Of a DNA stretch of 64,000 nt, positions 28,801 through 42,127 are shown piece by piece. Source of the DNA: Nitrosopumilus sp. (lineage in GTDB: Archaea > Thermoproteota > Nitrososphaeria > Nitrososphaerales > Nitrosopumilaceae); contig CBDBLX010000002.1 of assembly GCA_965207445.1 (NCBI GenBank), positions 1,463,849-1,527,848 on the forward strand, in the 5' to 3' direction. Below the pieces are notes generated by a model. It was not told where the DNA came from. It saw only the letters and a list, made by a program, of their open reading frames with translations, and ran no database searches. The position numbers and the translations under genes are program-made. Each line of letters begins with the position of its first letter. The first letter of the stretch is position 1.

Positions 28801-31800
28801 TCAGATAACATAGGTACTGCTCTCCAAATGGTGACGTCACAGACACCACCCCGCCTACTATCACCCTGACTGGGTCGGCTTCTGTCACCGTGACGCTGGG
28901 CGGCACATATGAAGAAGAGGGGGCAGTCTGCTCTGATATTGTGGATGCTGACAAGCCAGCCACTGTAGGGGGCGACACAGTTAACACTGACTCGACTGGT
29001 CAATATACACCATACAGTATACCTGCACAGATACAGCAGGTAATGAGGCCACACCTGTAGATCGTACCGTGACCGTCCATGATCCGACAGCTCCGTCTGT
29101 TGTTATAGACAACGTAACAATGGAAGCAACAGGTGCCACAACTAGTGTCAATATTGGCTATCCAGAGATAACTGATGCATCAGGTGGCCCATATATCGTA
29201 ACACATAACGCAACTGGAAATGTACAGACCACATCAGGTGCTAGTAATGTGACCGTATCACTTGGTGTTGGTAGGATTATAGTGCAGTGGAGCGTCACGG
29301 ATCCCTCAGATAACATAGGTACTGCTCTCCAAATGGTGGACGTCACAGACACCACCCCGCCTACTATCACCCTGACTGGGTCGGCTTCTGTCACCGTGAC
29401 GCTGGGCGACACATATGAAGAAGAGGGGGCAGTCTGCTCTGATATTGTGGATGCTGACAAGCCAGCCACTGTAGGGGGCGACACAGTTAACACTGACTCG
29501 ACGGGTCAATACACATACAGTATACCTGCACAGATACAGCAGGTAATGAGGCCACACCTGTAGATCGTACCGTGACCGTCCATGATCCGACAGCTCCGTC
29601 TGTTGTTATAGACAACGTAACAATGGAAGCAACAGGTGCCACAACTAGTGTCAATATTGGCTATCCAGAGATAACTGATGCATCAGGTGGCCCATATATC
29701 GTAACACACAACGCAACTGGAAATGTACAGACCACATCAGGTGCTAGTAATGTGACCGTATCACTTGGTGTTGGTAGGATTATAGTGCAGTGGAGCGTCA
29801 CGGATCCCTCAGATAACATAGGTACTGCTCTCCAAATGGTGGACGTCACAGACACCACCCCGCCTACTATCACCCTGACTGGGTCGGCTTCTGTCACCGT
29901 GACGCTGGGCGGCACATATGAAGAAGAGGGAGCAGTCTGCTCTGATATTGTGGATGCTGACAAGTCAGCCACTGTAGGGGGCGACACAGTTAACACTGAC
30001 TCGACGGGTCAATACACTATACAGTATACCTGCACAGATACAGCAGGTAATGAGGCCACACCTGTAGATCGTACCGTGACCGTCCATGATCCGACAGCTC
30101 CGTCTATTTCCATCAACGACGTAACAATGGAAGCAACAGGTGCCACAACTAGTGTCAACATTGGCTATCCAGAGATAACTGATGCATCAGGTGGCCCATA
30201 TATCGTAACACACAACGCAACTGGAAATGTACAGACCACACCAGATACTAGTAATGTGACCGTATCACTTGGTGTGGGTATGATTATAGTGCAGTGGAGC
30301 GTCACGGATCCCTCAGATAACATAGGTACTGCGCTCCAAATGGTGGACGTCACAGACACCACCCCGCCTACTATCACCCTGACTGGGTCGGCTTCTGTCA
30401 CCGTGACGCTGGGCGGCACATATGAGGAACAAGGAGCCGTCTGCTCTGATATTGTGGATGCTGACAAGTCAGCCACTGTAGGGGGCGACACAGTTAACAC
30501 TGACTCGACGGGTCAATACACCATACAGTACACCTGCACAGATACAGCAGGTAATGAGGCCACACCTGTAGATCGTACCGTGACCGTCCATGATCCGACA
30601 GCTCCGTCTATTTCCATCAACGACGTAACAATGGAAGCAACAGGTGCCACAACTAGTGTCAACATTGGCTATCCAGAGATAACTGATGCATCAGGTGGCC
30701 CATATATCGTAACACACAACGCAACTGGAAATGTACAGACCACACCAGATACTAGTAATGTGACCGTATCACTTGGTGTGGGTATGATTATAGTGCAGTG
30801 GAACGTCACGGATCCCTCAGATAACATAGGTACTGCTCTCCAAATGGTGGACGTCACAGACACCACCCCGCCATCTGTTGTTATAGACAACATAACAATG
30901 GAAGCAACAGGTGCCACAACTAGTGTCAACATTGGCTATCCAGAGATAACTGATGCATCAGGTGGCCCATATATCGTAACACACAACGCAACTGGAAATG
31001 TACAGACCACACCAGATACTAGTAATGTGACCGTATCACTTGGTGTGGGTATGATTATAGTGCAGTGGAGCGTCACGGATCCCTCAGATAACATAGGTAC
31101 TGCGCTCCAAATGGTGGACGTCACAGACACCACCCCGCCTACTATCACCCTGACTGGGTCGGCTTCTGTCACCGTGACGCTGGGCGGCACATATGAAGAA
31201 GAGGGGGCAGTCTGCTCTGATATTGTGGATGCTGACAAGTCAGCCACTGTAGGGGGCGACACAGTTAACACTGACTCGACGGGTCAATACACTATACAGT
31301 ATACCTGCACAGATACAGCAGGTAACGAGGCCACACCTGTAGATCGTACCGTGACCGTCCATGATCCGACAGCTCCGTCTATTTCCATCAACGACGTAAC
31401 AATGGAAGCAACAGGTGCCACAACTAGTGTCAACATTGGCTATCCAGAGATAACTGATGCATCAGGTGGCCCATATATCGTAACACACAACGCAACTGGA
31501 AATGTACAGACCACACCAGATACTAGTAATGTGACCGTATCACTTGGTGTGGGTATGATTATAGTGCAGTGGAGCGTCACGGATCCCTCAGATAACATAG
31601 GTACTGCGCTCCAAATGGTGGACGTCACAGACACCACCCCGCCTACTATCACCCTGACTGGGTCGGCTTCTGTCACCGTGACGCTGGGCGGCACATATGA
31701 GGAACAAGGAGCCGTCTGCTCTGATATTGTGGATGCTGACAAGTCAGCCACTGTAGGGGGCGACACAGTTAACACTGACTCGACGGGTCAATACACCATA

Positions 31801-34800
31801 CAGTACACCTGCACAGATACAGCAGGTAATGAGGCCACACCTGTAGATCGTACCGTGACCGTCCATGATCCGACAGCTCCGTCTATTTCCATCAACGACG
31901 TAACAATGGAAGCAACAGGTGCCACAACTAGTGTCAACATTGGCTATCCAGAGATAACTGATGCATCAGGTGGCCCATATATCGTAACACACAACGCAAC
32001 TGGAAATGTACAGACCACACCAGATACTAGTAATGTGACCGTATCACTTGGTGTGGGTATGATTATAGTGCAGTGGAACGTCACGGATCCCTCAGATAAC
32101 ATAGGTACTGCTCTCCAAATGGTGGACGTCACAGACACCACCCCGCCATCTGTTGTTATAGACAACATAACAATGGAAGCAACAGGTGCCACAACTAGTG
32201 TCAACATTGGCTATCCAGAGATAACTGATGCATCAGGTGGCCCATATATCGTAACACACAACGCAACTGGAAATGTACAGACCACACCAGATACTAGTAA
32301 TGTGACCGTATCACTTGGTGTGGGTATGATTATAGTGCAGTGGAGCGTCACGGATCCCTCAGATAACATAGGTACTGCGCTCCAAATGGTGGACGTCACA
32401 GACACCACCCCGCCTACTATCACCCTGACTGGGTCGGCTTCTGTCACCGTGACGCTGGGCGGCACATATGAAGAAGAGGGGGCAGTCTGCTCTGATATTG
32501 TGGATGCTGACAAGTCAGCCACTGTAGGGGGCGACACAGTTAACACTGACTCGACGGGTCAATACACTATACAGTATACCTGCACAGATACAGCAGGTAA
32601 CGAGGCCACACCTGTAAGCCGCACCGTGACCGTCCATATGGCGCCCGATACCACCTCACCGTCTATTTCCATCAACGACGTAACAATGGAAGCAACAGGT
32701 GCCACAACTAGTGTCAATATTGGTTATCCAGAGATAACTGATGCATCAGGTGGCCCATATACCGTAACACACAACGCAACTGGAAATGTACAGACCACAC
32801 CAGATACTAGTAATGTGACCGTATCACTTGGTGTGGGTATGATTATAGTGCAGTGGAGCGTCACGGATCCCTCAGATAACATAGGTACTGCGCTCCAAAT
32901 GGTGGACGTCACAGACACCACCCCGCCTACTATCACCCTGACTGGGTCGGCTTCTGTCACCGTGACGCTGGGCGGCACATATGAAGAAGAGGGGGCAGTC
33001 TGCTCTGATATTGTGGATGCTGACAAGTCAGCCACTGTAGGGGGCGACACAGTTAACACTGACTCGACGGGTCAATACACTATACAGTATACCTGCACAG
33101 ATACAGCAGGTAACGAGGCCACACCTGTAAGCCGCACCGTGACCGTCCATATGGCGCCCGATACCACCTCACCGTCTATTTCCATCAACGACGTAACAAT
33201 GGAAGCAACAGGTGCCACAACTAGTGTCAATATTGGTTATCCAGAGATAACTGATGCATCAGGTGGCCCATATACCGTAACACACAACGCAACTGGAAAT
33301 GTACAGACCACACCAGATACTAGTAATGTGACCGTATCACTTGGTGTGGGTATGATTATAGTGCAGTGGAACGTCACGGATCCCTCAAATAACATAGGTA
33401 CTGCTCTCCAAATGGTGGACGTCACAGACACCACCCCGCCTACTATCACCCTGACTGGGTCGGCTTCTGTCACAATAACCATAGGAAACTCATATGTGGA
33501 TGCAGGGGCCGTCTGTACAGACTTGGTGGACGGTGATATTGTTCCAGTTCAACTAGGTACGGTAAACGCATTTGCCATAGGTCAGTACACCATACAGTAC
33601 ACATGCACAGACGCAACAGGTAACGAGGCCACACCAGTAAACCGTACCGTGACTGTCAATATGGCGTCCGATACCACCTCACCGTCTATTTCCATTGACG
33701 ACGTAACAATGGAAGCAACAGGTGCCACAACTAGTGTCAATATTGGTTATCCAGAGATAACTGATGCATCAGGTGGCCCATATACCGTAACATATAACGC
33801 AACTGGAAATGTACAGACCACATCAGATGCTAGTAATGTGACCGTATCACTTGGTGTGGGTATGATTATAGTGCAGTGGAGCGTTATGGATCCCTCAAAT
33901 AACATAGGTACTGCGCTCCAAATGGTGGACGTCACAGACACCACCCCGCCTACTATCACCCTGACTGGGTCGGCTTCTGTCACCGTGACGTTTGGTGGCA
34001 CATATGAGGAACAGGGAGCCGTCTGTACAGACTTGGTGGACGGTGATATTGTTCCAGTTCAACTAGGTACGGTAAACGCATTTGACATAGGTCAGTACAC
34101 CATACAGTACACCTGTACAGACGCAGCAGGTAATGAGGCCACACCTGTAAGCCGCACCGTGACTGTCAATATGGCGTCCGATACCACCTCACCGTCTATT
34201 TCCATCAACGACGTAACAATGGAAGCAACAGGTGCCACAACTAGTGTCAATATTGGCTATCCAGAGATAACTGATGCATCAGGTGGCCCATATACCATAA
34301 CACACAACGCAACTGGAAATGTACAGACCACACCAGATACTAGTAATGTGACCGTATCACTTGGTGTTGGTAGGATTATAGTGCAGTGGAACGTCACGGA
34401 TCCCTCAAATAACATAGGTACTGCGCTCCAAATGGTGGACGTCACAGACACCACCCCGCCTACTATCACCCTGATTGGCTCGGCTTCTGTCACCGTGACG
34501 TTGGGCGACACATATGAAGAAGAGGGGGCAGTCTGCTCTGATATTGTGGATGCTGACAAGCCAGCCACTGTAGGGGGCGACACAGTTAACACTGACTCGA
34601 CTGGTCAATACACCATACAGTATACCTGCACAGATACAGCAGGTAATGAGGCCACACCTGTAAGCCGCACCGTGACCGTCCATATGGCGTCCGATACCAC
34701 CTCACCGTCTATTTCCATCAACGACGTAACAATGGAAGCAACAGGTGCCACAACTAGTGTCAATATTGGCTATCCAGAGATAACTGATGCATCAGGTGGC

Positions 34801-36261
34801 CCATATACCGTAACACATAACGCAACTGGAAATGTACAGACCACATCAGGTGCTAGTAATGTGACCGTATCACTTGGTGTTGGTAGTATTATAGTGCAGT
34901 GGAGCGTTATGGATCCCTCAAATAACATAGGTACTGCGCTCCAAATGGTGGACGTCACAGACACCACCCCGCCTACTATCACAATGATTGGCTCGGCTTC
35001 TGTCACCGTGACGTTTGGTGGCACATATGAGGAACAAGGAGCCATCTGTACAGACTTGGTGGACGGTGATATTGTTCCAGTTCAACTAGGTACGGTAAAC
35101 GCATTTGCCATAGGTCAGTACACCATACAGTATACCTGCACAGATACAGCAGGTAATGAGGCCACACCTGTAAGCCGCACCGTGACCGTCCATATGGCGT
35201 CCGATACCACCTCACCGTCTATTTCCATCAACGACGTAACAATGGAAGCAACAGGTGCCACAACTAGTGTCAATATTGGCTATCCAGAGATAACTGATGC
35301 ATCAGGTGGCCCATATACCGTAACACATAACGCAACTGGAAATGTACAGACCACATCAGGTGCTAGTAATGTGACCGTATCACTTGGTGTTGGTAGTATT
35401 ATAGTGCAGTGGATCGTTATGGATCCCTCAAATAACATAGGTACTGCGCTCCAAATGGTGGACGTCACAGACACCACCCCGCCTACTATCACCCTGACTG
35501 GTTCGGCCTCTGTCACAATAACCATAGGAAACTCATATGAAGAACAGGGAGCCGTCTGTACAGACTTGGTGGACGGTGATATTGTTCCAGTTCAACTAGG
35601 TACGGTAAACGCATTTGCCATAGGTCAGTACACCATACAGTACACCTGCACAGACACAGCAGGTAACGAGGCCACACCAGTAAACCGTACCGTGACTGTC
35701 CATATGGCGCCCGACACCACCTCACCGTCTATTTCCATTGACGACGTAACAATGGAAGCAACAGGTGCAACGACTAGGGCCAATATTGGCTATCCAGAGA
35801 TAACTGATGTATCAGGTGGCCCATATACCATAACACATAACGCTACTGGAAATGTACAGACCACATCAGATGCTAGTAATGTGACCGTATCACTTGGTGT
35901 TGGTAAGATGATCGTGCAGTGGATCGTTATGGATCCCTCAAATAACATAGGTACTGCGCTCCAAATGGTGGACGTCACAGACACCACCCCGCCTACTATC
36001 ACAATGATTGGCTCGGCTTCTGTCACAATAACCATAGGAAACTCATATGAAGAACAGGGAGCCGTCTGTACAGACTTGGTGGACGGTAATATTGTTCCAG
36101 TTCAACTAGGTACGGTAAACACATTTGCCATAGGTCAGTACACCATGAAGTACACATGCACAGACACAGCAGGTAATGAGGCCACACCTGTCGGCCGCAC
36201 CATGACTGTCCATATGGCGCCCGACACCACCTCACCGTCTAATTATTCACAATGCAGATAG
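13818..36261 (+). CDS. Giant secreted adhesin-like protein (~7,400 aa if ~10 frameshifts are corrected): FG-GAP x12, FN3 x4, NHL x5, ~39 HYR-like plus ~28 DUF5011-like Ig modules
   Basis: ORFs 13818-19577, 19498-20331, 20304-21026, 21073-21411, 21758-25336, 25318-28869, 29069-29563 and 29572-36261 are collinear pieces of one repeat array, broken mostly by 1-4 bp indels relative to sister repeats. There is an N-terminal hydrophobic signal segment. Confidence 0.85.
14160..16510 (+). repeat. 12 FG-GAP / integrin-alpha beta-propeller repeats; the second set is near-identical with a 204-bp period
   Basis: Repeated FG.SVASIGDINGDGTPDIAVGA...GAV.ILLMN motif with Ca-binding DxNGDG loops. Confidence 0.9.
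17938..18620 (+). repeat. NHL repeats (141-bp / 47-aa period, ~5 copies)
   Basis: FG..GSGDGEF..P.GIAINGTGHVYV.D...RVQIFD consensus. Confidence 0.9.
19180..36240 (+). repeat. 17-kb tandem array of Ig-like modules A (267 bp) and B (~237 bp), arranged as AB (504 bp) and AAB (771 bp) units
   Basis: Counted by eye: ~39 A (VTMEATGATTSVNIGYPEITD..WSVTDPSDN) and ~28 B (TITLTGSASVTVTLG..AVCSD..YTCTD). Confidence 0.92.
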
Positions 36262-36698
36262 CATCTCAGGATTTCAGTCGTAATTGAAATCATGATTTAT
36301 ACTCCTGCCGTGGTTACGGCTGTGTAATCTATAAAAACCATATGTGATATACATGGTACAACAAAACTGGAAATTAGGTGGTAAGAATCATGATGGTAAC
36401 TGTTAACTCCGTGCCTAGATTTTTGCACTATTTTTTGATCCTATCTTGAGTTTGTGCCTAAAAATGTCTATGATTTCAAAATTATGTTAGCTGTTAACCA
36501 TATGTGATAAGCGAAGCGCGGTAAAGTCGGAAATTAGATAGTATTAGTTGTGATTGGGCATAAACTCATCAAATTTTTAGCCATATGGCAACGACCCTAC
36601 CGCCACATTGACATTACATGTAGGGGACTAAACAAGACTATGTATTATGAGCGTTGTTGGGTTTTTGTTTTTTTGTATAAAGTTTCGTGATCTATATA

Positions 36699-36830
36699 AT
36701 CATTCAAAAATAACGCCTAGTCAAATGCAGCGCATGTACAATACTCTATACGAAAACAAAATGTGACCAAATATAAGTATGTGATTTTATTATTATGTCC
36801 AAAGAGCTTGATTCACACAAAAAATACGCG
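36699..36830. repeat. Diverged ~130-bp dispersed repeat, copy 1
   Basis: Aligns with 39328-39458 (tcattcaaaaa..cctagtcaaatg.agcgcatgt..ccaaagag.ttg.ttcacacaa). Confidence 0.8.
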
Positions 36831-36990
36831 CTTTTCATATCAGTTGTAACCGTGCACCTATGTTAATCCCATGAGGCGTTGACAAGGCAACTATTTTGTC
36901 GTTACACTTTCATTTCATGCCTACGGATACGCAGAGTCGTTGATATCTTACGCTAGGAGTGTGTAAGATGCCAAGATCTAGGACTGCCAG

Positions 36991-38179
36991 TTATTGTTTC
37001 TGGCTTGTCTTTGCGATCTTGTCCAGCTTGCGTCGATACAGATCCTCGTTACGTGACTTGTACGGTTCCTACGTGATCAGGATGTGCCACATTATCGTGA
37101 CCGTCTTGTGTGACACGGTTATTATGCCAAGTGGATGTTTGCCTGCATGACGTCACTTGACTGACTCGTAGACAAGCTTCATCTTCGAGTCGTGCATCAC
37201 AGATATCTGCGCAGCATCGCGTATTGCCCAGTTGACTAGGTCGCAGGTGTTCTGCTTTTTGATGCGGCTCTTGTGCGATACGTCGCCTGATTCGCTTATC
37301 CTTGGGCAGAGACCCGTAATTGAGACCATTTTTTTGGATTCTTGAATCGCGCTACACCATCTATCTCAACTTGCAGCCATCAACAGTACGATAAATGCAC
37401 CAACATCGGGCATACTCATCAAAAGTATTGCATCCTTGTTCGGGTATGCTTTTTTTGTAAAATACCTGTCAGTATCTGCCAAGGACTATAAGATGCGGCA
37501 TATGTCTGACGTGCTTTTGTAGCACAAACGTCTCATGTGCAGTACCGAGCTTGATCCATTTTAACTGCTCAATTCCCTTGGCGCGAGTACATCTTTGTTG
37601 CATCGATGGTTAGTTCATACCCATCAAGAAGAGCATGAATGCGGTTTATCGCCTCTGTCCTTTTCTGGTCGCCTGAGATGGTTACCCACATATTACACAT
37701 GGCAGGCATGGATGCGGTTTATCTCCTCTGTTCTTTTCGGGGTCAGTCTGACATAATGTCGTATATGTTCTGATACTGCGTATGTATTCTTCTGGAACGT
37801 GGGTCTTGTGCATCATGCCAGCCAGGAGAAAGGTTGCCAGTTTGTACGCATCTTCCTTGTCGGTCTTTTTGGCGCTCTTTGTGATGTGCTAGTCTGTATG
37901 GATTTGTAAGAATAATTCGGATTCCCGTGTTATTGAATGCGTTGTGTGTGGAACGCCACATGTTAACAGTTGATTCGTAGACTGCTGCTGCAGCAGTTAA
38001 CATTTTTTGTACCGTACTTGCGTATCATGCCCTCTGCGATTTGTTTTGCATCATGTATTGTATTTGTATACTGTCCTTTTTTGAGGATGTTGCCATTATG
38101 TCCCAGTACACAATAGTCACACTTTTTTTTTGCTGATGTTGATTCCCATGTATGTGGTCGCTGTCACATATTTGTCCAT
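36991..38179 (-). pseudogene. IS110-family (DEDD recombinase) transposase, multiply frameshifted
   Basis: N-terminal YMGINISKKK..YCVL and AVYEST RuvC-like motifs; C-terminal GLCPRISESG serine motif and IMWHIL...EPY. Internal stops and frameshifts. Confidence 0.85.
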
Positions 38180-38199
38180 TTTTTTATCATATCCTTTTG

Positions 38200-38484
38200 G
38201 ACGTTTGATGTTGACAGAACGAAAGCTGCAATCACCCATCAGGGCGCAAAGCCCAGTCATATAGCAGTTCTGATTCCCCCGTGTTATCAGAGTTGGTAAC
38301 AGCAGCAGTAGTAGTAGTAGTAGTAGGTGGAAGGCGCAAAGCCCAGTCATATAGCAGTTCTGATTCGCCCATTTAACCCCAAGAGTGTACGAACTGATTA
38401 GAGTCCGTGTTCCATGAACGGCGAAGGATCGCTCCATCACCCTAGCTACGCCAGAGGGAGGAGAAATGGTGTGGTTATCATGTA
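38200..38484 (-). ncRNA. Candidate IS110 bridge/seek RNA in the 5' non-coding end
   Basis: GC-richer ~290-nt segment upstream of the transposase. It contains a stem / internal loop / hairpin (cagaac-tgc..gggc-tttgc-gccc..gca..gttctg, 38215-38272) and a second stem ttcgcc/ggcgaa (38364-38425). Confidence 0.55.
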
Positions 38485-38560
38485 TGCAACCCCTATGCCT
38501 GCTCCAGATGTTAGGCAACGAATCTGTGCCTAAATTTGAAAAAAAAAGTCAAAAGGTTAC
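38485..38560 (-). mobile_element. Degenerate GTAACC-MITE, remainder after IS110 insertion
   Basis: caacccctatgcctgctccagatgttaggc..tgtgcctaaattt...aaggttac aligns with the reverse complement of 12527-12607. Confidence 0.75.
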
Positions 38561-38609
38561 GCTATCATACACACAATACTTTAAAACGTCATACATATTA
38601 CAACATACA

Positions 38610-39035: not shown

Positions 39036-39327
39036 TTTACATCAATACGCAATAGTATTTTACAAACGTTTTTTCAAAAATACAACTCTGCACAATTTAG
39101 ACATACATTATGTTGTTTTTCTTACAATAACAAGCAGTACATATTTTTCTAACAATACAATTATTAAAATAGTAGAGTTTGACACGATGTAATTTTTGGA
39201 AAAAGTATATGAAACTACAATCATGAACTTTTTATAATTATTTTAAAAATACAGATTATACATAATATCCATTGTATGTAAAATTGATTCAATAAAACGT
39301 GTAAAGTAAGTTCTATTACTGATATGA

Positions 39328-39458
39328 TCATTCAAAAACAGATCCTAGTCAAATGTAGCGCATGTGTGATACTCGATATGCAGACAAGAGTATGGCCAAA
39401 TACAACTATATGATTTCATTATTGTATCCAAAGAGTTTGGTTCACACAATAAAACACA
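39328..39458. repeat. Diverged ~130-bp dispersed repeat, copy 2
   Basis: Aligns with 36699-36830. Confidence 0.8.
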
Positions 39459-41503: not shown

Positions 41504-42127
41504 TCATTTTTTACGCTTTTTGCCTTTCTTGCTCTTTTTACCGTTCACTGCTTTTAGTATACTATTGAGACATTCTTTTTGTGTTTGTAATGTTGTGCCT
41601 ACCGTATCCAGTCTACCATTCACATTTTCTAATGTTGTGCCTACCGTATCCAGTCTACCATTCACATCTTTTATTGCTGTGTCTACCGTATCCAGTCTAC
41701 CATTCACATTTTCTAATGTTGTGCCTACCGTATCCAGTCTACCATTCACATCTTTTATTGCTGTGTCTACCGTATCCAGTCTACCATTCACATCTTTTAT
41801 TGCTGTGTCTACCGTATCCAGTCTACCATTCACATCTTTTATTGCTGTGTCTACCGTATCCAGTCTACCATTCACATCTTTTATTGCTGTGTCTACCGTA
41901 TCCAGTCTACCATTCACATCTTTTATTGCTGTGTCTACCGTATCCAGTCTACCATTCACATTTTCTAATGTTGTATCTACCTTATCCAGTCTACCATTCA
42001 CATTTTCTAATGTTGTATCTACCTTATCCAGTCTACCATTCACATTTTCTAATGCATTTCTCATATAGTCTCTATCTTCTTTCCACTCACTATGCATAAC
42101 TGGTCTATCATCTTTTTCACGTACCAT
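41504..42127 (-). CDS. Coiled-coil protein of ~11 tandem 14-aa repeats with a basic C-terminal tail
   Basis: (E/K)(N/D)VNGRLDTVDT(A/T)(I/L) double-heptad repeats; tail KKSKKGKKRKK. Confidence 0.75.
   Translation of the reverse strand: MVREKDDRPVMHSEWKEDRDYMRNALENVNGRLDKVDTTLENVNGRLDKVDTTLENVNGRLDTVDTAIKDVNGRLDTVDTAIKDVNGRLDTVDTAIKDVNGRLDTVDTAIKDVNGRLDTVDTAIKDVNGRLDTVGTTLENVNGRLDTVDTAIKDVNGRLDTVGTTLENVNGRLDTVGTTLQTQKECLNSILKAVNGKKSKKGKKRKK
41586..42053. repeat. 42-bp coding tandem repeat (~11 copies)
   Basis: Unit tatccagtctaccattcacat.. repeated head to tail without unique spacers. Confidence 0.92.

What the first reader, a model, noticed from the sequence alone, without database searches (positions are those of the whole stretch)
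38200..38484. Candidate archaeal bridge RNA with guide-like matches to the MITE TIR and to the element's own ends
Seen (minus strand): one loop region contains ccgttca (38415-38421) and ggggttaa (38373-38380), matching opposite strands of the MITE TIR ggggttgaacgg. A second stem / internal loop / hairpin (38215-38272) carries tatatg and atgggtg on its two loop sides, matching the donor junction ataggtg|cataca at 5/6 and 6/7. Known: this target-loop plus donor-loop layout is the bridge RNA architecture. Caveat: the matches are only 6-7 nt, and the target-side segments could instead pair within the RNA stem.
Basis: partly seen in the sequence, partly recalled or inferred. Interest (0 to 1): 0.8.

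Follow-up and report, generated by a model that had tools for sequence, protein, structure and literature searches.

The report
Dead archaeal jumping gene's guide RNA
This is the decayed remnant of the guide ("bridge") RNA of an IS110-family jumping gene that once homed to the ends of a small repeat in an ammonia-oxidising archaeon; the mechanism is known from bacteria, and intact relatives show the same RNA at work across this archaeal group.

Summary
Alone they are weak: both repeat-end matches arise together in 81 of 5000 resampled sequences. Relatives settle it.

The region is the 5' non-coding end of a dead 1632-bp IS110-family element (36855-38486, minus strand). Its gene has 12 stops. 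It sits inside the terminal inverted repeat of a 78-bp MITE.

Twenty-three intact relatives from Nitrososphaeria share a ~124-nt RNA: a closing stem and two stem/internal-loop/hairpin arms. 91% of cells pair, and 16 of 24 pairs show compensatory changes.

In 31 copies of 16 families, loop 1 matches each copy's own flanks. Identity is 4.7 and 4.4 of 7, against 1.7 and 1.9 for other families' flanks (0 of 5000 permutations). Loop 2 tracks the element's ends.

A model built without window sequence finds the window's RNA in two pieces, 50.4 and 17.3 bits, split by a 90-nt tandem duplication.

The guide order and long subterminal repeats are IS1111/seekRNA-like, but the RNA lies upstream of the gene. 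No transcript data exist.

This scan found archaeal bridge RNAs before on other DNA. Verdict: a real relic and a new member of a known kind.

The parts
36855..38486 (-). Decayed IS110-family insertion sequence ('W'), 1632 bp counted with one TG core (about 1542 bp without the 90-nt duplication)
   Evidence: Ends were set from the subterminal inverted repeat and end motifs, independently of the guides. The flanking DNA is MITE on both sides.
38487..38564 (+). Body and degenerate far end of the 78-bp MITE into whose terminal repeat the IS inserted. In element orientation this is the left target ...GGGGT plus core.
   Evidence: More than 100 BLAST matches start exactly at 38487. Alignment of MITE copies.
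36846..36854 (+). Other part of the split MITE terminal repeat (gtaaccgtg). In element orientation this is the right target, CACGGTTAC, decayed from AACGGTTAC.
   Evidence: Intact MITEs read AACCGTTCAACCCC. Sister right-end relics are followed by AACGGTTAC.
36994..38149 (-). Transposase relic. It is colinear with the intact 364-aa copy P0001 at 31% identity and has 12 in-frame stops. The catalytic GIDIS motif reads GINIS.
   Evidence: tblastn E 1.2e-46. PF02371 scores 36.9 bits at window 37168-37425. 12 stops. PF01548 was not found in the window.
38468..38486 (-). Left end (right donor): CATAC plus the subterminal inverted repeat ATGATAACCACACC
   Evidence: Homologous to (G)AAYRCATGATAACC of relatives.
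36855..36873 (-). Right end (left donor): subterminal repeat GGGATTAACAT, then AGG, then core TG (36856-36855)
38314..38444 (-). Closing-stem 5' strand, the whole target-binding arm, and the first (orphaned) copy of the donor arm's 5' half. Parts, in minus-strand order: outer stem 38430-38424; 5' guide CGCCGTT 38423-38417; core complement CA 38416-38415; inner hairpin 38413-38383; 3' guide TTGGGGT 38382-38376; core TA (was TG) 38375-38374; AAT 38373-38371.
   Evidence: Covariance model R1 hit, 17.3 bits, E 0.011. Guide table.
38243..38332 (-). 90-nt tandem duplication/insertion. It holds a 38-nt repeat of the donor arm's 5' half plus about 52 nt with (GTA)n. It breaks the RNA.
   Evidence: Direct repeat D3, 97%. 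R1 aligns the RNA as two separate hits. Short-read contigs of one study break at 38292-38336 and do not bridge it.
38213..38309 (-). Donor-binding arm and closing-stem 3' strand. Parts, in minus-strand order: outer stem 38270-38264; 5' loop TATATGACT 38263-38255; hairpin 38254-38242; 3' loop TGATGGGTGATT 38241-38230; outer stem 38229-38221; closing stem to 38213.
   Evidence: R1 hit, 50.4 bits, E 2.1e-11. Guide table.

Best explanation
Window 38213-38444 (minus strand) is the remnant of the bridge/seek RNA gene of an IS110-family insertion sequence.

In working relatives the element excises as a circle whose joined ends form the donor site. A ~124-nt RNA encoded just upstream of the recombinase gene folds into a closing stem and two arms.
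[quoted passage not shown] - In arm 2, the 3' loop strand matches the element's right end plus core, and the 5' loop strand is complementary to the first 5-6 nt of the left end.

The DEDD/serine recombinase bound to this RNA then exchanges strands at the 2-nt core. The core is TG here and AG in the sister family.

The W lineage was programmed for GGGGT-TG-AACGGTT, the terminal inverted repeat of an abundant 78-bp MITE.

The window copy is dead: broken gene, duplicated and split RNA, mutated guides.

Shown: homology, conserved structure, guide-flank covariation, and the insertion sites. Inferred: that the RNA is made, binds the recombinase and guides recombination. This rests on analogy with IS621 and ISEc11.
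For: 1. Element and target. The W ends abut the two halves of a MITE terminal repeat. Sister left- and right-end relics elsewhere in the genome sit at the same position of other MITE copies.

2. Structure. Alignment A1 of 23 RNAs from intact elements, with 31-58% protein identity among hosts. RNAalifold finds both arms, and 9 of 16 pairs have compensatory changes. My 24-pair structure has 91.1% of 552 cells paired, 16 pairs changed on both sides, 0 of 500 shuffles as high, and slid controls at 29-50% paired. About 26 G-U cells would be A-C on the other strand, which fits the strand of the gene.

3. Guides. Ends were set without using the guides. In 31 copies of 16 families, the 3' strand of loop 1 against the left target gave 4.71 of 7 identities, against 1.68 for other families' flanks (0 of 5000 permutations). 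The 5' strand against the right target (29 copies, 15 families) gave 4.38 against 1.87 (0 of 5000). The 5' strand of loop 2 against the left end gave 4.74 of 6 against 3.69 (0 of 5000).

4. Core. The core covaries in all four strands: TG families against AG families.

5. Loop 1 varies between near-identical copies while loop 2 stays fixed. Guide positions are enriched for differences in 3 of 8 copy pairs (p 0.0009-0.011).

6. Model R1, built without window sequence, hits the window only here: 50.4 and 17.3 bits. The next hit scores 6.3 bits. It also hits five more distant elements that were not in the training set, at 30-50 bits, each upstream of its gene.

7. Intact recombinase in the same genome: NF033542 226.9 bits. 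The catalytic D/E/D/D/S positions align with ISCro4 in the PDB.
Against: - No RNA-seq run holds this DNA, so no transcript, 5' end or 3' end is shown for any member.
- The window copy folded alone is no better than shuffles (z 0.15 as it stands, -0.3 with one repeat unit left out), and its minimum-energy fold does not give the consensus arms. Intact relatives are also unremarkable thermodynamically (z -0.8, -0.2, -2.4, +1.3).
- Misses in the guide table: L062 right target 0 of 7; A1-A3 right target 2-3 of 7 in the common register (better if shifted by 1 nt); L070 left target 2 of 7; L077 sits at a site that fits its guides poorly; L017, L019 and L021 have loop 2 5' strands that do not fit their left ends (2-3 of 6).
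- The core is not paired by the 5' strand of loop 2.
- The loop 2 versus end test has little room, because both are conserved (non-cognate 3.69 of 6).
- Copies within a family are not independent. Permutations were done at family level, but the families are related too.
Confidence: 0.87

Rival explanations
1. The conserved structure is an ordinary 5' leader of the transposase mRNA, for translational control or as an antisense-RNA target. On this reading the guide-like words are carried-over target sequence without a guiding role.
For: The RNA lies directly upstream of the start codon and Shine-Dalgarno-like GGAGGTG. The 3' strand of loop 1 is a direct repeat of the left junction, including the first 2-3 nt of the element, and could in principle arise by copying. 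No transcript data exist.
Against: The 5' strand of loop 1 independently tracks the right flank, about 1.3 kb away, as a reverse complement (4.38 against 1.87 of 7; 0 of 5000 permutations). A leader has no reason to do this. Rhizobium relatives carry the same word grammar downstream of the gene, where it cannot be a leader. This is the published behaviour of bridge and seek RNAs (PMC11208160, PMC11187229).
Confidence: 0.05
2. The loop words act at the DNA level, as internal copies of the junctions used as protein-binding or synapsis sites in the non-coding end, and not as RNA.
For: Sequence alone cannot tell DNA from RNA. No RNA evidence is available here.
Against: Compensatory changes keep six helices, which points to a folded single strand. 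G-U cells fit only the gene's strand. Homologous systems were shown to use RNA (PMC11208160 sections 5-8; PMC11187229 passages).
Confidence: 0.04
3. In this window the matches are chance words in a decayed non-coding stretch. The W copy never had MITE-directed guides.
For: Both repeat-end matches arise together in 1.6% of resamples. The donor matches are only 5/6 and 6/7. W's fold has z about 0.
Against: The words sit in the exact loop columns of model R1. The sister fragment has 8- and 9-nt perfect matches in the same columns. Several W-type end relics lie at the same position of other MITE copies.
Confidence: 0.02

Closest known systems
seekRNA of IS1111-family elements (ISEc11, ISPa11, ISKpn4; Siddiquee et al. 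2024, PMC11187229; abstract, section 6 and passages read)
   Same: - Long subterminal inverted repeats: 11-13 of 14 complementary in most copies.
- The guide complementary to the top strand lies 5' of the one complementary to the bottom strand.
- The two matches overlap at the insertion point.
- Natural reprogramming between close relatives.
- Rhizobium relatives at about 29% protein identity have the long non-coding region downstream (264-266 against 131-135 nt) and the same 'left target + core + AATGGG' and 'right end + core + AATGG' words.
   Different: Here the RNA lies upstream of the recombinase gene (left end about 180-250 nt, right end about 115-140 nt). This holds in all 23 aligned loci and the 5 further model hits. 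The paper says almost all IS1111 members have it downstream, with few exceptions (ISMtsp17 upstream; ISHvo10 and ISAcp5 both) whose RNAs it does not describe. Whether the recombinase falls inside the IS1111 clade was not tested.
IS621 bridge RNA (IS110 group; Durrant et al. 2024, PMC11208160, sections 5-7 and 12 and passages; Hiraizumi et al. 2024, PMC11208158, passages)
   Same: - Encoded in the left end upstream of the recombinase.
- Two stem/internal-loop/hairpin arms, target loop first and donor loop second.
- Each loop reads the left half on one strand and the right half on the other, overlapping on a 2-nt core.
- A 9-nt 5' strand that ends on the core.
- If both DNAs are turned by 180 degrees the pairing scheme is IS621's, and the cores read CA or CT.
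   Different: [quoted passage not shown]
- Long against 2-3-bp subterminal repeats.
- About 124 nt with a closing stem, against 177 nt.
- Protein only remotely alike (E 2e-7 to IS621, 1e-9 to ISCro4).
- The 5' strand of loop 2 does not pair with the core.
- The AA after the core in loop 1 is invariant, so a handshake role cannot be tested.
[quoted passage not shown]
   Same: An IS of this family homing to a fixed position inside the terminal inverted repeat of another mobile element.
   Different: Here the host element is a 78-bp archaeal MITE. I did not read that paper.
Asgard archaeal IS1111-type element with two-loop bridge RNA
   Same: An archaeal element with readable target and donor guides, judged a new member of a known kind.
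   Different: Another phylum and other DNA.

Membership tests
Bridge/seek RNA of IS110-family elements (general) | Encoded in a non-coding end of an element that carries a DEDD (RuvC-like) plus Transposase_20 recombinase gene | tested here: met
   In W a gene relic lies directly downstream. Intact genes follow the RNA in relatives.
Bridge/seek RNA of IS110-family elements (general) | Conserved fold with internal loops that carry the guides | tested here: met
   on relatives. In W only as two model hits of 50.4 and 17.3 bits. W's own fold is not supportive.
Bridge/seek RNA of IS110-family elements (general) | Two loop strands complementary to opposite strands of the target, overlapping at the core, and covarying with the insertion site | tested here: met
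   (0 of 5000 permutations for each side). For W: 6 of 7 and 4 of 7 against its own flanks. The sister fragment has 9 and 8 nt perfect.
Bridge/seek RNA of IS110-family elements (general) | A second loop matching the element's joined ends (donor) | tested here: met
   The 3' strand equals the right end plus core, with G/A and core T/A covarying. The 5' strand is complementary to left-end positions 1-6 in most families, with exceptions L017, L019 and L021.
Bridge/seek RNA of IS110-family elements (general) | Transcribed, bound by the recombinase, and needed for transposition | not testable with these tools
   No RNA run holds the stretch.
IS110 group, IS621-like bridge RNA | [quoted passage not shown] | tested here: not met
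   The order is the reverse in all 16 families.
IS110 group, IS621-like bridge RNA | RNA in the long left end; subterminal repeats only 2-3 bp | tested here: inconclusive
   The location is met. The repeats are long, 11-13 of 14, so that half is not met.
IS1111 family | Subterminal inverted repeats of 7-17 bp | tested here: met
   W itself scores 9 of 14 (decayed).
IS1111 family | [quoted passage not shown] | tested here: met
IS1111 family | Longer non-coding region, and the RNA, downstream of the gene | tested here: not met
   Upstream in all loci examined. The paper allows a few exceptions.
IS1111 family | Transposase related over its full length to that of IS1111 | not tested
   No IS1111 reference protein was compared. 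The best plasmid relatives (about 29% identity) have the downstream layout.
Rfam families | A hit at or near a family's gathering score | tested here: not met
   0 hits at gathering thresholds over the window. Only a 17-bit CRISPR-DR4 chance hit at E 3.6 in 36800-38600.

The most novel reading that the evidence does not exclude
Nitrososphaeria, and probably haloarchaea, carry a third layout of IS110-family RNA-guided elements. It combines an IS1111-type RNA grammar (top-strand guide first, long subterminal repeats, the conserved 'core-AAT-GGGG' motif) with a position upstream of the recombinase gene, as in the IS110 group. The RNA is a compact ~124-nt three-way junction.

Because each copy's loop 1 fits its own flanks even among 96-99% identical copies in one cell, the RNA would act mainly on the circle that made it. 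The A/T-rich subterminal repeat, about 25 nt upstream of the closing stem, might serve as an archaeal TATA box. If so, no junction-built promoter would be needed.
Probability: 0.4. Interest if true: 0.55.

Novelty: new member of a known kind. Interest (0 to 1): 0.45.

Why it matters

It also gives a ready comparative set for archaeal RNA-guided recombinases:
- 31 copies in 16 families, with defined ends, targets and guides.
- A calibrated covariance model.
- Intact copies in the same genome.

These elements are compact (364-aa protein, about 124-nt RNA). They have a mixed IS110/IS1111 layout that bears on how the RNA module moved between the element's ends.

For genome annotation, it explains several MITE-associated relics in this archaeon. 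The window copy itself is dead and has no function.

Tried and rejected
- Rfam search of the whole window at gathering thresholds and of 36800-38600 at E up to 10: nothing relevant.
- Earlier notes near this place: none.
- The search for related loci with one protein gave only 6 loci. The genome search over the order gave the working set.
- An unconstrained search for inverted repeats to set the ends gave spurious pairs. It was replaced by a motif-anchored search. L018 (left end missing), L063 and L064 (odd left end) and the right end of L019 (absent) could not be set and were left out. L070's right end (repeat score 5) was left out of the right-target test.
- No RNA holder is listed for the stretch.
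- DNA contigs of one study (4 runs, one sample, possibly the source of the assembly) cover the locus with two alleles. They break at 38292-38336, so they neither confirm nor deny the 90-nt duplication. A 'skips 1536' joint has only 21 nt on its shorter side and was dismissed as repeat noise.
- Folding W alone: no support.
- Model R1 does not reach the Rhizobium or haloarchaeal elements. Their likeness rests on word matches only.
- Plasmid tblastn names gave only 'IS110 family transposase', so the subgroup was not resolved.
- Handshake guides: the AA after the core equals the first two bases of the left end in 12 of 16 families (my count). Both are invariant, and the Rhizobium elements do not fit, so no claim is made.
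- Searches for print on thaumarchaeal bridge or seek RNAs: searches listed no paper holding both kinds of term among those shown. The preprint 10.64898/2026.08.14.744561 has no mention of archaea or IS1111.

Full report
**The observation.** The 12-nt repeat word is real and abundant. It has 5 matches with at most 1 mismatch in the window against 0.10 expected, and 112 exact copies in the genome against 0.1 expected, with 95 paired repeats. Taken alone the words are weak. In 5000 Markov resamples of the 285-nt region, both repeat matches arose together 81 times. The 5/6 and 6/7 donor matches mean nothing by themselves.

**What surrounds it.**
- The stretch is the 5' non-coding end of a decayed IS110-family element on the minus strand.
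- A 364-aa intact recombinase from the same genome (P0001) aligns colinearly to 38133->36994 at 31% identity, E 1e-46, through many stops; the frame has 12 stops.
- PF02371 scores 36.9 bits at window 37168-37425. PF01548 was not found in the window.
- BLAST of the region against the genome shows that more than 100 copies of a short repeat begin exactly at 38487.
- Aligned copies show a 78-bp MITE with the ends AACCGTTCAACCCC...GGGGTTGAACGGTT.
- In element orientation the junctions read GGGGT-TG|CATACATGATAACC (left) and TTAACATAGG-TG|(C)ACGGTTAC (right). So the element split the MITE's terminal repeat at GGGGT-TG-AACGGTT, with a TG core.
- Other decayed W-type ends in the genome sit at the same position of other MITE copies. 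Two left ends lie near C2:1629830-1629900. Right ends lie at C2:159654, 1249421, 61079 and elsewhere.

**Relatives.**
- The genome holds three near-identical intact elements of a sister family A, with core AG.
- A protein search of 401 genomes of the order found matches at E <= 1e-20 in 62, many of them multi-copy.
- I fetched 40 further copies.
- I set element ends from the subterminal inverted repeat and end motifs, without using the guides.
- All share the same end grammar. The left junction reads core | 5 nt + ATG(A/T)(T/A)AA... The right junction reads ...(T)TAACAT + AG(G/A) + core |. The subterminal repeats are 11-13 of 14 complementary in most copies.

**Structure.**
- Twenty-three RNAs from 16-odd families are nearly length-constant, 118 nt between my anchors.
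- RNAalifold finds two stem/internal-loop/hairpin arms, and 9 of 16 pairs show compensatory changes.
- I added a closing stem that encloses both arms, giving 24 pairs in six helices. Of 552 cells, 91.1% pair, and 16 pairs have changes on both sides. 0 of 500 shuffles reach any of the five measures. Sliding the partners by 1-3 columns drops pairing to 29-50%.
- About 26 cells are G-U, which fits only the gene's strand.
- Single-sequence folds reproduce the architecture in L053 and L066 but are thermodynamically ordinary (z -0.8 to +1.3, best -2.4). This is expected of RNAs made largely of big internal loops.

**Guides** (table; 31 copies, 16 families).
- Arm 1 reads ...CCCC-T-[7 nt]-[2 nt]-T-hairpin-T-[7 nt]-[core]-AAT-GGGG....
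- The first 7+2 nt are the reverse complement of core plus right flank. The second 7+2 nt equal left flank plus core.
- Left target: cognate identities 4.71 of 7, against 1.68 for flanks of other families.
- Right target: 4.38 of 7 against 1.87 (29 copies, 15 families).
- Family-level permutations reached the observed mean 0 of 5000 times for each side.
- The first two of the seven 3'-strand positions are mostly T and unpaired, so most copies match 5 of 5 plus the core.
- In arm 2, the 3' strand equals the right end plus core (ATAGGTG, ATAGATG, ATAGGAG, ACAGATG, each with its own family's end). The first six nt of the 5' strand are complementary to left-end positions 1-6 (4.74 against 3.69 of 6; 0 of 5000).
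- The core covaries in all four strands between TG and AG families.
- Within families arm 2 is constant while arm 1 differs between copies and follows each copy's flanks (G092, G325, G235). Guide positions are enriched for differences in 3 of 8 copy pairs.
- Misses:
  - L062 right target 0 of 7.
  - Family A right targets 2-3 of 7 in the common register.
  - L070 and L077 fit poorly.
  - L017, L019 and L021 have arm 2 5' strands that do not fit their left ends.
  - The 5' strand of arm 2 does not pair with the core.

**The window copy.** Model R1, built from the 23 relatives with no window sequence, hits the window only here, on the minus strand. Positions 38309->38213 score 50.4 bits (E 2e-11; donor arm and closing stem). 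Positions 38444->38314 score 17.3 bits (E 0.011; target arm plus an orphan half of the donor arm). The split is caused by a 90-nt tandem duplication with a (GTA)n run. Short-read contigs of one study break there, so the duplication has no independent check. W's guides are worn. The 3' guide TTGGGGT-TA has lost the core G, which the sister fragment keeps as TG. The 5' guide is CGCCGTT-CA. The donor strands read ATGGGTG (end ATAGGTG) and TATATG (for CATACA). W alone does not fold convincingly. In the whole genome R1 finds four A-type RNAs at about 111 bits, one other decayed copy at 57 bits, and W. It also finds five distant elements outside the training set at 30-50 bits.

**Comparison with what is known.**
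- Durrant et al. (PMC11208160, sections 5-7 and 12 read) place the IS621 RNA in the left end. [quoted passage not shown] Here the order is the reverse.
- Siddiquee et al. (PMC11187229; abstract, section 6 and passages read) report just this reversal as the difference between IS1111-type seekRNAs (top-strand complement first) and an IS110-type one. They list long subterminal repeats and a downstream non-coding region as IS1111 traits, with a few upstream exceptions whose RNAs they do not analyse.
- The archaeal family therefore has IS1111-type grammar and repeats, but an upstream RNA.
- The best plasmid relatives, Rhizobium elements at about 29% identity, have the long non-coding region downstream (264-266 against 131-135 nt). 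There they carry 'left flank + core + AATGGG' and 'right end + core + AATGG' words. This is the same grammar at the other end of the element.
- A haloarchaeal relative has a 12-nt repeat of its left junction in its upstream region.
- If both DNAs are turned by 180 degrees the pairing scheme equals IS621's, with cores CA or CT. This is geometry, not a test.
- The protein is a clear IS110-family member (NF033542, 226.9 bits), but it is remote from the solved ISCro4 and IS621.

**Novelty.** RNA-guided IS110/IS1111 recombination is established. Archaeal IS110 recombinases are catalogued (10.1101/2024.06.21.599552, passages read). This scan has already reported an archaeal bridge RNA on other DNA. 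My searches listed no paper that treats thaumarchaeal bridge or seek RNAs, but I read only parts of five papers and no supplements. Durrant's covariance-model survey of ISfinder may already include such elements. I file it as a new member of a known kind, with an unusual mixed layout, seen here as a dead relic. No transcript evidence exists.

Noticed in passing
window 36694-36825 and 39322-39453: A second, about 130-nt, dispersed repeat family with roughly 95 BLAST matches across the genome at 72-96% identity. One copy lies 20 nt from the split MITE end. Its nature was not studied.
   Followed up: no
window 38487-38564; genome-wide: A 78-bp MITE with 14-bp terminal inverted repeats. There are 95 paired copies, and 112 exact 12-mers against 0.1 expected. 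It served as a landing pad for the W-type IS.
   Followed up: partly
L063 and L064 (G038:C1 about 1328200 and 1541480), left ends: In two copies the usual first 8 nt of the left end (AACACATG) are replaced by ATTCATTTG, which repeats the copy's own loop 1 3' guide word (TTCATTTG). This looks like an aberrant event between the guide region and the end. It is unexplained.
   Followed up: no
G000:C2:1978378-1978501 (L093): A fourth A-type RNA (111.6 bits) with its own guides (TTGCAAC-AG against flank TTACAAC-AG). The recombinase gene after it reads into an early stop. The family and protein searches did not list it.
   Followed up: partly
G000:C2:1750036, 1284550, 1189009, 1401710 (L003-L006): A second, unrelated-looking IS110 family (409-410 aa) in the same genome with different ends (GGAACTAACCATATG... 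/ ...ACTTACAGGA). Its RNA was not looked for.
   Followed up: no
window 29572-36261 (+): A very long open frame (2229 aa listed) made of about 170-aa near-identical repeats (TPPTITLTGSASVTV...), right upstream of the repeat cluster.
   Followed up: no
window 41504-42127 (-): A 207-aa frame made of 14-aa tandem repeats (VNGRLDTVDTAIKD).
   Followed up: no
L070 (G325:C1 about 1456900): A decayed relative with a poly-G/GA-rich insertion in the linker between the two RNA arms, and poorly fitting guides.
   Followed up: no
window 36933-38291: Contigs of one metagenome study show two alleles of the relic, one identical and one with about 47 differences per 1.36 kb, so strains differ at this dead element.
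   Followed up: no
left ends of G325, G092, G200 and G038 copies: The A/T-rich subterminal repeat (ATGTAAAAAC, ATGATAACC) lies about 25 nt upstream of the RNA's closing stem, where an archaeal TATA box would sit. This is read by eye and was not tested.
   Followed up: no
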